From positions 4,362 to 68,361 of the forward strand of contig JBBDHX010000042.1 in NCBI GenBank assembly GCA_040880745.1: 64,000 bases of DNA, written 5' to 3'. Made by a program: the position numbers. Positions within the stretch are counted from its first letter, which is position 1. Every line of letters starts with the position of its first letter. Below, piece by piece: positions 6,001 to 9,000 of the stretch. Origin of the DNA: Actinomycetota bacterium. GTDB lineage: Bacteria > Actinomycetota > UBA4738 > HRBIN12.

Positions 6001-9000
6001 ACTCGTAGGAATGGAAACGACGCTGACATGGCCTCTCGGTGCTAATGGGACTCGACCGGCAGCCGTAAGGGATGCTGGTCCCGAGCCGCCGGCGGGTGAG
6101 CACTGACAGGCGCAGGGCCGAGGAGCCCTAGATCTAGATCGTGCCCCCGGCGGTCGGTGAGGGGATCGACGGCCGGTGGGATGTCGTGCCTTCGAGCACT
6201 GATCCATTAGCGCGCCGCGTGTCCTCTCCAGGCTCGAAGGATGTCGAGTGCGGGGGGAGGAGCGGTGTGATCTACCTGGGGATCGACTGGGCCGAGCACC
6301 ACCACGACGCGTGCGTCATGGACGAGGCCGGAGCTGTGATCGCGAAGGGCCGTGTACCCGAGGGCGTGGATGGTGTGGCGAAGCTTCACGAGCTGGTCTC
6401 GAGCTTCGCCGAGGAACCGGCGGAGGTGATCGTCGGGATCGAGACCGATCGAGGCCTGCTGGTGGAGGCCCTGGTCACGACCGGCTACCGGGTGTATGCG
6501 ATCAACCCGATGGCGGCCTCTCGCTACCGGGGATCGTCACCACGTCGGCGGAGCCAAGTCCGACCCCAAAGACGCGATGGTGCTCGCCGACCTGGTGCGC
6601 ACCGACCGCCACAAGCACCGTGAGGTAGCCGGGGACTCCACGCTGGCCGAGGCGATCAAGGTGCTCGCCCGGGCCCACCAGCGCCTTGTGTGGACGCGGG
6701 GACGCCAGACCAACCAGCTGCGCTCTACGCTTCGGGAGTACTACCCCGGAGCGCTGCAGGTCTTGACCGATCTGCGCTCGGCCGACGCGCTGGCGGTCCT
6801 CGTCGCCGCACCCACGCCAGAGGCCGGCCGTCGACTGTCGAAGACCAAGGTCCGACGCGTGCTCGAGCGAGCCGGACGTCAGCGCAACCTGGACCGGCGT
6901 GCCGCCGAGATCGTCGAGGGCTTGCGGGTCCCACAGCTGGAGGCTCCGGGGATCGTGGCGGAGGCCTTCGGATCCAGCGTGGTCTCGACCGTCGCGATCA
7001 TCTCGACCCTGAACGCTGAGATCGATCGGCTCCAGACCGAGCTCGCGAGCCGTTTTGATGAACACCCGGACACCGAGATCCTCAGAAGTCTTCCAGGACT
7101 GGGTTCGGTCCTCGGCGCCCGGGTGCTGGCGGAGTTCGGGGATGACCCGACCCGCTACGCCGATGCTAGGGCACGACGCAACTACGCGGGGATGGCTCCG
7201 ATCACGAGGGCTTCCGGCACCCGCAGGGTCGTGCTCGCCCGAGTCGCACGCAACAAGCGCCTGGCCGACGCGATGTATCTCTGGTCGTTCTCCTCGCTGA
7301 GCGCCTCACCCGGTGCACGGGCCTGCTACGACCGTCAGCGGTCGGCTGGCAAGACCCACCACCAGGCCCTGCGGACACTCGGCAACCGTTGGGTCGGGAT
7401 CCTGCATGGCTGCTTGGCGCATCGCTCGCTCTACGACGAGGACGTCGCATGGGGGAGCGGGCAGGAGCTCGCCGCTTGACGAGTTAGAGGCGTGGGATGT
7501 CTAGATCGAATTGTGGCTTGTCCATGCTCCCCTCGGCAGCCGGCCCCTGTCCGACTCGACCCGAAACCTCCCGGAGTTCGGGCGCAAGCAACTTCGTTCG
7601 AGGCCATACCCTTTTATGACTTCACGGTGGATCATCTCCAAGCGAGGCGGCGTACCGTTCGAACTCGATCGCCGGCGGGCTGGCCATCCTCTGCAACCGA
7701 CCCAGCAAGCGCATGATGAAGAAGATCAGGGCCGTATCGGGACCGCTTCGCGTCAGGGCCTTGTCGTGCTCGTCCACCTCGAAGCTTCCCGCGCTCAGCA
7801 CGCACCCGATGTCGAGCCCTCCCTCTCCACCGAACTCCTGAAGCGCGGCCTCGAACGCGTTGCCGAGCGGGGGGGTCCAGGCAGAGTCCATCGTCAGAAG
7901 TCCGCCGATGATGCGGTGAAGGGGCTTCGGGCGGTACTCGCCCTGCACATACGGAACAGGGGCTGAGGTCCGTGTCAACGAGCGAACCGACGAGACCTTA
8001 CCGGATGCATATTCGACAACGCCGCGGTCGATCGTCTGCTTGACCTCGAGGGCTCCGAAGACCGCCTCGGCGGCCACGAAGAGGTACTCGCCAACGTCGA
8101 GCAGCACCGGCGAGAAGTGCCGATCGTAGATCAGCAAGTCGATCTGGTCGCTTCGGTTCCCGTCAGCGTCGACTGCGAACCCCTTCGATACGCGATACCG
8201 AGTGGGCAGGATCGACTCGATCATGCCCTTCCAGTTGAGCTCGGAGTCGTCGCCGATCGCGACGGGATGGGATCCAACCGACCGGCCGACTCCGAGCGTG
8301 GCGAGCAGCTGATCCTGTCGAAGGAGGAACGCCTCGCGGAGCTCGAACCGGTTCCCCGCCCCTGCGAGATCCGCCGCTGTCGTCTGCTCCGGTTCAGTCA
8401 TCGGCCTCTCCGAACGGTGGCGTCGGGACGAATTCCGCGGCGAGGGCGATGAGCCGTTCGCCACGCAGGGGTCCATGGTCTAGGCCGTCGAGCACGGCCT
8501 CGACGATGAACCGCTGTCGAAGATCCGAGAACGTGCATCCGTACGCTCGGCCATCCCGGGCACCTGTCAGCCGGACGAGTTCAGCGAGGTCGTCGTCGGA
8601 TATGGCTGCTCCGTTGAACTCCCGCTCAAGGAGCTGACGGCGTTGAACGTCGTTCGGACGCGCGAGCCGGAGCACCGCGGCGGCTCGCCGCAGCACGGCG
8701 GGATCGAGCGCGCCGTCTCGGTTCGTGCACATCACGGTCAGCACTGGAAGTCGTTGCCGCCGAAGTGAGTCGATGCCTCGGATGAGCGCGTTCACACCTG
8801 CGCGATCCTCATGGTGCATCTGGACCAGCGCCCGAGACTGCGCGAGGGCATCTGCCTCGTCGACGAGTAGGACGATCGCCGAACGGATGCGGTCGCCCGA
8901 GGACCGACCAGCGGATGCCGCTTCTGTGACGCGTTCGAACGCGGCCGTCAGCAGGGTGGTCATCTCGCCCACCGCACCGCGGCCGCGAGCGGCCAGGCTC

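What the first reader, a model, noticed from the sequence alone, without database searches (positions are those of the whole stretch)
6042..7502. IS110 with fully readable bridge RNA guides, donor junction and target
Seen: the donor loop has GTGGGATGTC (6176-6185, equal to right end 7492-7501) and CCATTAG (6204-6210, reverse complement of left-end CTAATGG) around hairpin GTGC/GCAC. The target loop has GGCGC (6109-6113, 4/5 to left flank GGTGC) and TAGATCTAG (6129-6137, 8/9 to right flank CTAGATCGA) around hairpin GGGC/GCCC. Joining the ends creates TTGACG-N18-TCTAAT, a near-consensus sigma70 promoter. Known: IS621-type bridge recombinases use this architecture with a CT core. Inference: an actinobacterial bridge system with reconstructed target ...TCGGTG-CT-AGATCG..., whose left guide fits this site imperfectly.
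Basis: partly seen in the sequence, partly recalled or inferred. Interest (0 to 1): 0.72.

Follow-up and report, generated by a model that had tools for sequence, protein, structure and literature searches.

The report
Textbook bridge-RNA insertion sequence, frameshifted copy
This is an ordinary IS110-type jumping gene whose own guide RNA spells out both its ends and its insertion site, as in the known IS621 "bridge RNA" system. The reading is correct, but this is a new member of a known kind, and this copy's enzyme gene is broken by one extra base.

Summary

**What it is.** Window 6042-7502 is an IS110-group insertion sequence:
- CT sits at both junctions.
- The left non-coding end is 225 nt and the right end is 23 nt.
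- The DEDD/Tnp recombinase is split by one extra G in the run 6529-6532.

**Support from about 50 homologous elements in other actinobacterial genomes:**
- The two-loop RNA scaffold is kept through compensatory changes. 94% of cells are paired and 19 of 34 pairs have double changes.
- The 5' side of the target loop tracks each element's own left flank at -1 to -4.
- The 3' side tracks each element's own right flank at +2 to +5. Permutations gave 0/20000 for both sides.
- The donor-loop guides equal the element's ends over exactly 10 and 7 nt.
- The base after the right donor guide pairs with target position -1, as an IS621-type "handshake guide" does.
- Joining the ends gives TTGAC-N17/18-TCTAAT in 33 of 33 elements.

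**This copy.** The right guide fits 7/7. The left guide has one mismatch in its four informative positions, which is within the family's normal range.

**Not obtained.** No empty site and no reads.

**Verdict.** New member of a known kind, of low to moderate interest. Its mobility is doubtful unless the frameshift is an assembly error.

The parts
6042..7502 (+). IS110-group insertion sequence including both copies of the CT core (1459 bp plus one CT)
   Evidence: Homology with 17-33 related elements begins at CTAATGG and ends at GGGATGTCT, and flanks are unrelated. It is the only full copy in its own genome.
6036..6041 (+). Left target (TCGGTG) next to core CT 6042-6043
   Evidence: Flank positions -1, -3 and -4 equal the left target guide, and -2 is mismatched (T in the site, C in the guide).
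6054..6080 (+). 5' stem-loop of the bridge RNA (approximate)
   Evidence: Single-sequence fold. Relatives have complementary GAGCAGC.../...GCTGCTC arms at the same place. It was not counted formally.
6081..6103 (+). Target-binding loop, 5' arm of the outer stem
   Evidence: Helix 1: 19 pairs, 97% of cells paired, 10 pairs with changes on both sides.
6104..6113 (+). Left target guide (UGACAGGCGC). The informative part is 6109-6113, and the last C corresponds to core C
   Evidence: Covaries with each element's own left flank at -1 to -4, weakly at -5 and -6, and not beyond.
6114..6129 (+). Internal hairpin of the target loop (A-GGGC ... GCCC-U)
   Evidence: Helix 2: 4 of 5 pairs have compensatory changes.
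6131..6137 (+). Right target guide GAUCUAG, the reverse complement of CT-A-GATC
   Evidence: Fits right flank 7501-7507 at 7/7. In the family, +2 to +5 covary and +6/+7 do not.
6138..6139 (+). Handshake guide of the target loop (AU)
   Evidence: Can pair with donor positions -1/-2 (T7500, G7499; A:T and U.G) and not with its own target (G6041, T6040). Position and logic follow IS621 (PMC11208158).
6141..6162 (+). Target-binding loop, 3' arm of the outer stem
   Evidence: Helix 1.
6167..6173 (+). Donor-binding loop, 5' arm of the outer stem
   Evidence: Helix 3: 5 of 6 pairs have compensatory changes.
6176..6185 (+). Left donor guide GUGGGAUGUC, identical to right end 7492-7501
   Evidence: Identity to the right end runs from -9 to core C and stops at -10 in 33 elements. 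Covarying changes occur at -9 (3 elements) and -4 (1 element).
6186..6199 (+). Internal hairpin of the donor loop (GUGC/GCAC)
   Evidence: Helix 4: 100% paired and almost invariant, so it is uninformative on covariation.
6204..6210 (+). Right donor guide CCAUUAG, the reverse complement of left end CTAATGG
   Evidence: Complementarity covers 7 nt in 33 elements and stops at position 8.
6211..6212 (+). Handshake guide of the donor loop (CG)
   Evidence: The first base pairs with target -1 in 84% of 50 elements, against 51% for mismatched pairings (G with C 30 times, C with G 11 times). Here the pairs are C:G6041 and G.T6040.
6214..6219 (+). Donor-binding loop, 3' arm of the outer stem
   Evidence: Helix 3.
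6223..6262 (+). Hairpin pairing CCUCUCC (6223-6229) with the ribosome-binding site GGAGGAG (6256-6262)
   Evidence: Present in the fold. The ribosome-binding-site window is paired in 20/20 relatives folded singly. A role in translational control is inferred.
6267..6530 (+). Recombinase, N-terminal piece (first half of the DEDD/RuvC-like domain), start GTG 6267
   Evidence: PF01548 profile positions 1-85. The start aligns with relatives' GTGATCT.
6529..6532 (+). GGGG run carrying one extra G, which causes the frameshift
   Evidence: All 10 aligned relatives have one base fewer here. The Pfam match continues in the next frame.
6532..7479 (+). Recombinase, C-terminal piece (rest of the DEDD domain plus the Tnp domain with the catalytic Ser in RASG), stop TGA 7477-7479
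   Evidence: PF01548 87-155 and PF02371. NF033542. ISCro4 transposase 9t56, with ASG aligned to ESG.
7476..7481 (+). -35 hexamer TTGACG of the promoter completed only in the circular form (-10 is TCT 7500-7502 plus AAT 6044-6046)
   Evidence: TTGAC at a 17- or 18-nt spacing from TCTAAT in 33/33 elements. No sigma-70-like site is seen in the integrated state.
7503..7507 (+). Right target (AGATC) after core CT 7501-7502
   Evidence: Perfect complement of the right target guide.

Best explanation
The region is an IS110-group insertion sequence that encodes a canonical bridge RNA in its 225-nt left end. The mechanism below is inferred by homology with IS621; the sequence features are shown here.

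1. Excision joins the right and left ends at the shared CT. This creates a promoter, TTGACG-N18-TCTAAT, across the junction.
2. The promoter drives an RNA with a 5' stem-loop and two internal loops.
3. [quoted passage not shown] 4. In the target loop, ...GGCGC pairs with the bottom strand left of the target CT. GAUCUAG pairs with the top strand CT-AGATC.
5. The two bases 3' of each right guide (AU and CG) can pair with the other DNA after top-strand exchange, as handshake guides do.
6. A tetramer of the DEDD/Ser recombinase then exchanges strands at CT and inserts the circle.

The RNA-encoded ideal site is (A)GGCG-CT-AGATC. The occupied site is CGGTG-CT-AGATC, which has one mismatch among the four informative left positions.

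This copy sits between a type I restriction hsdR gene and a defence operon on the opposite strand. Its recombinase reading frame is broken by one extra G at 6529-6532. As assembled, it cannot make its enzyme.
For: - Sequence identities at the stated coordinates.
- Pfam PF01548 and PF02371 across the frameshift, and NCBIfam 'IS110 family RNA-guided transposase'.
- Similarity to the ISCro4 bridge recombinase, with the Ser motif aligned.
- End-to-end DNA homology (about 70%) with elements in other genomes.
- Scaffold structure: 94.3% of cells paired against 34-46% when partners are slid, 19/34 pairs compensatory, 0/500 shuffles.
- Guide-flank covariation in 16 elements and in 50 elements, with 0/20000 permutations each.
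- Donor-loop handshake base versus target -1: 84% against 51%.
- Donor-guide limits at exactly 10 and 7 nt.
- Junction promoter in 33/33 elements.
- The guides of a relative (L020) predict the flanks of a second family member in this genome.
- The architecture and strand sense match PMC11208160 and PMC11208158.
Against: - No expression, circle-junction or empty-site evidence was obtained. No empty site was found in 100 relatives or in metagenome contigs.
- The recombinase gene is frameshifted, so current activity is doubtful.
- Rfam 15 returned no bridge-RNA match, so the RNA assignment rests on my own alignments.
- The left guide has a C.A mismatch at -2 and no match at -5.
- The recombinase is only distantly similar to the characterised enzymes (E 7e-10).
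Confidence: 0.93

Rival explanations
1. The element is an immobile relic. The extra G is a real mutation, no recombinase is made, and the bridge RNA is a fossil that is still intact only because the inactivation is recent. It could move only if a related recombinase, such as that of the second family member in this genome, acted in trans.
For: All 10 aligned relatives lack the extra G. The genome holds a single full copy. No other copy with this target loop exists in the public collections searched. The genome holds no perfect target GGCGCTAGATC.
Against: Every guide, stem and promoter element is intact. A one-base homopolymer error is a common assembly artefact. 7 of 33 relatives, many from long-read metagenome bins, also show broken frames.
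Confidence: 0.5
2. The frameshift is an assembly or sequencing error. The element is a fully active bridge-RNA transposon.
For: The error lies in a G homopolymer. The rest of the frame, 402 codons, has no stop and keeps the catalytic D, E, D, D and S motifs. The non-coding parts are perfectly preserved.
Against: Nothing direct. It cannot be checked without reads.
Confidence: 0.45
3. The left-end structure is only a 5' leader that regulates recombinase expression. Its matches to the ends and flanks are coincidental or reflect terminal inverted repeats.
For: The left and right donor guides can also pair with each other, and RNAalifold pairs them. A hairpin hiding the ribosome-binding site follows.
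Against: The variable loop bases track each element's own flanking DNA, which is unrelated between elements. A handshake base tracks target -1. A leader-only model explains neither.
Confidence: 0.02

Closest known systems
IS621 (E. coli) bridge RNA / bridge recombinase, IS110 group (Durrant et al. 2024, PMC11208160; Hiraizumi et al. 2024, PMC11208158)
   Same: - CT core.
- Long left end encoding the RNA and a short right end.
- The order 5' stem-loop, target loop, donor loop.
- Left guides with top-strand sense and right guides complementary to the top strand.
- Two-base handshake guides 3' of the right guides.
- A promoter rebuilt at the RE-LE junction, with its -35 in the right end.
- A DEDD plus Ser recombinase.
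   Different: - The recombinase is only distantly related. The sole PDB match is ISCro4 at E 7e-10.
- The left target guide covers only the C of the core in 46/50 family members. The base opposite core T is mostly A. In IS621 the LTG pairs with both core bases.
- The right target guide is 7 nt (core + A + 4), against 4 paired nt in wild-type IS621.
- The informative left guide is short (4 to 6 nt).
- A fixed A follows the core in both target and donor.
- The host is a high-GC actinobacterium.
ISCro4 / IS622 bridge recombinases (PDB 9t56; bioRxiv 10.1101/2025.05.14.653916)
   Same: Same family. The Tnp domain and the DxxD motif align.
   Different: Low sequence similarity. Those are enterobacterial elements engineered for human cells, whereas this is a natural, frameshifted copy.
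Unnamed 'IS110 family transposase' elements of Mycobacterium, Mycolicibacterium, Rhodococcus and Acidimicrobiia genomes and plasmids
   Same: They share the same donor loop and ends (GTGGGATGT-CT-AATGG), the same scaffold and the same junction promoter. More than 119 exact donor-loop matches were found. Protein identity is 58-68%.
   Different: Each lineage carries different target guides. No other copy with this element's target loop was found.
IS1111-group elements and seekRNA
   Same: They have a DEDD recombinase and RNA-guided site choice.
   Different: IS1111 elements carry the RNA in a long right end and have 7-17 bp subterminal inverted repeats (PMC11208160). Here the RNA is in the left end and the right end is 23 nt.

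Membership tests
IS110 family, IS110 group (bridge-RNA-guided insertion sequences) | N-terminal DEDD (RuvC-like) domain | tested here: met
   PF01548 profile positions 1-85 and 87-155 match in two frames. The motifs GIDW, GIETD and KSDPKDA are present.
IS110 family, IS110 group (bridge-RNA-guided insertion sequences) | C-terminal Tnp domain with the catalytic serine | tested here: met
   PF02371. RASG aligns with ESG of the ISCro4 transposase.
IS110 family, IS110 group (bridge-RNA-guided insertion sequences) | Intact recombinase reading frame | tested here: not met
   One extra G at 6529-6532 relative to 10 relatives. Whether it is a mutation or an assembly error is unknown.
IS110 family, IS110 group (bridge-RNA-guided insertion sequences) | No long terminal inverted repeats, and a shared core dinucleotide (CT) at both junctions | tested here: met
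   CT at 6042-6043 and 7501-7502. The same holds in 32 of 33 relatives.
IS110 family, IS110 group (bridge-RNA-guided insertion sequences) | Long left non-coding end and short right end (the reverse holds in the IS1111 group) | tested here: met
   The left end is 6042-6266 (225 nt) and the right end is 7480-7502 (23 nt). The criterion is from PMC11208160.
IS110 family, IS110 group (bridge-RNA-guided insertion sequences) | Structured RNA with two internal loops, conserved through compensatory changes | tested here: met
   94.3% of cells paired, 19/34 pairs with double changes, 0/500 shuffles.
IS110 family, IS110 group (bridge-RNA-guided insertion sequences) | Target-loop guides covary with the flanking target DNA (left guide with the bottom strand, right guide with the top strand) | tested here: met
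   with 0/20000 permutations on each side.
IS110 family, IS110 group (bridge-RNA-guided insertion sequences) | Donor-loop guides match the element's own joined ends | tested here: met
   Matches of 10 nt and 7 nt with sharp limits in 33 elements, plus a few covarying changes.
IS110 family, IS110 group (bridge-RNA-guided insertion sequences) | Handshake guides pair with the non-cognate DNA | tested here: met
   The first handshake base of the donor loop is Watson-Crick with target -1 in 84% of elements, against 51%. The second base shows no signal.
IS110 family, IS110 group (bridge-RNA-guided insertion sequences) | Promoter reconstituted at the RE-LE junction of the circle | tested here: met
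   Sequence level only: TTGAC-N17/18-TCTAAT in 33/33.
IS110 family, IS110 group (bridge-RNA-guided insertion sequences) | RNA is expressed, binds the recombinase and directs recombination | not testable with these tools
Rfam curated RNA family for bridge RNA | Match to a curated covariance model | tested here: not met
   No bridge-RNA match in Rfam 15 at E<=1. The only strong hit is Ms_AS-4, antisense inside the coding region.

The most novel reading that the evidence does not exclude
The element belongs to a large, experimentally untouched clade of bridge recombinases in high-GC bacteria, including Mycobacterium, Rhodococcus and Acidimicrobiia.

- The donor site GTGGGATGT-CT-AATGG is almost invariant across the clade.
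- The programmable code is compact: four to six bases left of the CT, then a fixed A, then four bases to the right.
- The left guides stop at the first core base.

If the frameshift is an assembly error, this copy is active. The clade could then supply native RNA-guided insertion tools for actinobacteria.
Probability: 0.4. Interest if true: 0.4.

Novelty: new member of a known kind. Interest (0 to 1): 0.25.

Why it matters
Little changes for the field. IS110 elements are known to carry bridge RNAs, and this one obeys the published rules.

Its value is as a clean, fully annotated natural example from an uncultured high-GC actinobacterium. The 50-element comparison also gives the guide rules of a widespread actinobacterial clade:
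- which loop positions are read;
- a one-base handshake signal;
- a conserved junction promoter;
- a hairpin covering the ribosome-binding site.

Those rules could help annotate such elements in Mycobacterium and its relatives. They could also help in choosing candidates for genome engineering in high-GC hosts.

Tried and rejected
- **Rfam scan of 5900-7700.** No bridge-RNA family matched. The only hit was Ms_AS-4, antisense within the coding region.
- **Empty site.** The joined flanks were searched in 100 relatives. Only the hsdR coding part matched, at 68-69%, and nothing spanned the junction. An exact 22-mer of the empty site was searched in metagenome contigs and gave no match.
- **Other copies with the same target loop.** None in metagenome contigs or genome contigs.
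- **First search with the search for related loci.** It gave only distant (27-42%) relatives. The genome search and a donor-loop DNA pattern found the real family.
- **RNAalifold on 15 sequences.** It paired the two donor guides with each other. I rejected that as the working structure, because both strands match the element's ends and the IS621 structures show the loop open. I used a hand-set structure instead.
- **A promoter for the RNA in the integrated state.** None was found. The flank's CTGACA is only 12 nt from GCTAAT, which is too close.
- **Durrant et al. supplements.** They were searched for this donor sequence and for 'Mycobacterium', with no occurrence in the files held.
- **My first coordinate for the G-run (6528-6531).** It was wrong and is corrected to 6529-6532.
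Full report
**1. What is in the sequence**

The window carries, at 6042-7502 on the + strand, an element with CT at both junctions.
- The left junction reads TCGGTG|CTAATGG.
- The right junction reads GGGATGTCT|AGATCG.

Two overlapping frames together give a DEDD/RuvC-like domain and a Tnp domain.
- 6270-6530 matches PF01548 profile positions 1-85.
- 6532-7479 matches PF01548 positions 87-155 and PF02371.
- NCBIfam calls both pieces 'IS110 family RNA-guided transposase'.
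- The start is GTG 6267, four bases after GGAGGAG. The stop is TGA 7477-7479.
- The left non-coding end is therefore 225 nt and the right one 23 nt. That is the IS110-group layout, not the IS1111-group layout (PMC11208160).

- GTGGGATGTC occurs twice in 64 kb, at 6176 and 7492, against 0.18 expected.
- CTAATGG and its complement occur only at 6042 and 6204.

**2. The frameshift**

Aligned with ten relatives, the window has one extra G in TACC-GGGG-ATCG, at 6529-6532.
- Read through, the 402-residue protein has no stop.
- It keeps GIDW, GIETD, KSDPKDA and RASG.
- The last two motifs align with the DxxD and ESG (catalytic Ser) motifs of the ISCro4 bridge recombinase. That is the only PDB match, at E 7e-10.
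- Seven of 33 relatives also have broken frames.

**3. A family to compare with**
- The genome holds one full copy.
- A protein search of 200 related genomes gave about 17 elements. They align end to end at about 70% DNA identity.
- Their homology starts at CTAATGG and stops at GGGATGTCT, with unrelated flanks. This fixes the boundaries without an empty site.
- A DNA pattern taken from the donor loop found more than 119 further loci. They lie in Mycobacterium, Mycolicibacterium, Rhodococcus, Acidimicrobiia and other Actinomycetota, plus a few bins labelled Dormibacteria or Sericytochromatia.
- From these I parsed 50 distinct elements with a left flank and 32-33 with a right end.

**4. RNA scaffold**

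I set a structure by hand. It has a long outer stem around the first loop, an internal hairpin, an outer stem around the second loop and its hairpin. Counted on 49 sequences:
- 94.3% of cells are paired, against 34-46% when partners are slid by 1 to 3 columns.
- 19 of 34 pairs have changes on both sides.
- 0 of 500 shuffles reach the observed values.

The window's own left end folds better than its shuffles (z = -3.1).

RNAalifold alone pairs the two donor guides with each other. I take this as a by-product of the ends being partly complementary.

**5. Target loop**

The ten bases before the internal hairpin end in the core C.

| Left-flank position | Identity with own flank | Identity with other elements' flanks |
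|---|---|---|
| -1 | 0.90 | 0.47 |
| -2 | 0.82 | 0.29 |
| -3 | 0.70 | 0.26 |
| -4 | 0.72 | 0.27 |
| -5 and -6 | 0.40 | about 0.26 |
| beyond -6 | no signal | no signal |

After the hairpin comes a constant UA, then four variable bases, then a constant UAG. The reverse complement of the variable bases plus UAG equals CT-A-NNNN of the right flank.

| Right-flank position | Identity with own flank | Identity with other elements' flanks |
|---|---|---|
| +2 | 0.94 | 0.51 |
| +3 | 0.91 | 0.28 |
| +4 | 0.81 | 0.33 |
| +5 | 0.72 | 0.34 |
| +6 and +7 | no signal | no signal |

- Permutations reached the observed means 0 times in 20000 on either side. A first pass on 16 elements gave the same result.
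- The strand sense is that of IS621. The left guide pairs with the bottom strand and the right guide with the top strand (PMC11208160).
- In 46 of 50 elements the base opposite core T on the left side is not U; it is mostly A. So the left guide reads only the first core base.

**6. This copy's fit to its site**
- The right guide GAUCUAG (6131-6137) fits CT-AGATC 7/7.
- The left guide ...AGGCG-C (6108-6113) meets CGGTG-C. It matches at -1, -3 and -4, has C against T at -2, and does not match at -5.
- Over -1 to -5 the score is 3. The family distribution is 2 (9 elements), 3 (12), 4 (22) and 5 (7). The misfit is therefore ordinary.
- Durrant et al. also report zero to two mismatches for natural sites.
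- The RNA-encoded ideal site GGCGCTAGATC does not occur in this 2.35-Mb genome.

**7. Donor loop**
- GUGGGAUGUC equals the right end from -9 to the core C, and identity stops at -10 in 33 elements.
- Covarying changes occur at -9 (A/A in three elements) and at -4 (G/G in one).
- A G/A difference at -2 in eight elements keeps a G.T wobble.
- CCAUUAG is complementary to CT-AATGG over exactly seven bases.

**8. Handshake guides**

In IS621 the two bases 3' of each right guide pair with positions -2/-1 of the other DNA after top-strand exchange. Pairing with the cognate DNA blocks the reaction (PMC11208158).
- In this family the first base after CCAUUAG is Watson-Crick to target -1 in 84% of 50 elements, against 51% for mismatched pairings. 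G sits opposite C 30 times and C opposite G 11 times.
- The second base shows no signal.
- In the window, CG (6211-6212) can pair with G6041 and T6040 of the target.
- AU (6138-6139) can pair with T7500 and G7499 of the donor.
- Neither pairs with its cognate DNA.

**9. Promoter and expression**
- Joining the ends gives TTGACG-N18-TCTAAT.
- TTGAC at a 17- or 18-nt spacing is present in 33/33 elements.
- No sigma-70-like site precedes the RNA in the integrated state, and no terminator separates it from the co-directional hsdR gene that ends at 5989. Weak read-through transcription is possible; this is an inference.
- Hiraizumi et al. 2026 report weak bridge-RNA expression from integrated IS621, and excision by the same complex at lower efficiency than insertion (PMC13626964).
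- Between the RNA and the start codon, CCUCUCC (6223-6229) can pair with the ribosome-binding site. The equivalent window is paired in 20/20 relatives. This suggests translational damping of the recombinase.

**10. An independent check inside the same genome**
- Contig C15 ends with a left end whose 51 bases are identical to those of relative L020.
- Contig C3 begins with a right end, GTGGGATATCT.
- L020's guides predict (T)AGAC-CT-AGACT.
- The flanks found are GCGGAC|CT and CT|AGACTG. That is 4/4 on the right and 3/4 on the left.

**11. Context**

The element sits between a type I restriction hsdR gene (2963-5989) and a minus-strand DUF6602 gene (7622-8476). This is an intergenic spot in a defence island.

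**12. Verdict**

The element follows the published bridge-RNA rules with small clade-specific differences:
- The left guides stop at core C.
- The right target guide is 7 nt.
- A fixed A follows the core.

It is a new insertion sequence by identity. The nearest relatives are 58-68% identical in protein, and no other copy carries this target loop. It is not a new kind of system.

Missing evidence is an empty site, circle-junction reads, RNA evidence and the truth of the G-run.

Noticed in passing
window 7089-7170 (-): Rfam family RF02464 (Ms_AS-4, 'Actinobacteria sRNA') matches at 71 bits (gathering score 50), antisense inside the recombinase coding region. That Rfam family seems to model a conserved stretch of IS110-family transposase genes rather than a free-standing sRNA gene.
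   Followed up: no
own genome, contig C15:37902-37952 and contig C3:1-44 (outside the window; L002): A second, different member of the same family is split over two contig ends. Its flanks, GCGGAC|CT and CT|AGACTG, fit the guides of the relative L020, whose first 51 bases are identical.
   Followed up: partly
window 6223-6262: A conserved hairpin pairs CCUCUCC with the ribosome-binding site GGAGGAG of the recombinase. The site is paired in 20/20 relatives folded singly, so translational control is likely.
   Followed up: partly
window 5989-6042 and 7503-7622: The element lies in the 1.6-kb gap between a co-directional type I restriction hsdR gene and a convergent DUF6602 gene of a defence operon. 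No terminator-like site lies between hsdR and the element.
   Followed up: partly
L012 (right junction) and L062 (left end): One relative lacks the CT at its right junction (TGGGATGT|AGCTGG). Another has a duplicated start of the left end (CTGATGGGCCTAATGGGG). These could be small rearrangements at the recombination site or assembly errors.
   Followed up: no
loci L049-L167: The exact donor loop occurs in more than 119 genome records, mostly Actinomycetota. A few are bins labelled Dormibacteria and Sericytochromatia, which could mean horizontal transfer or binning contamination.
   Followed up: no
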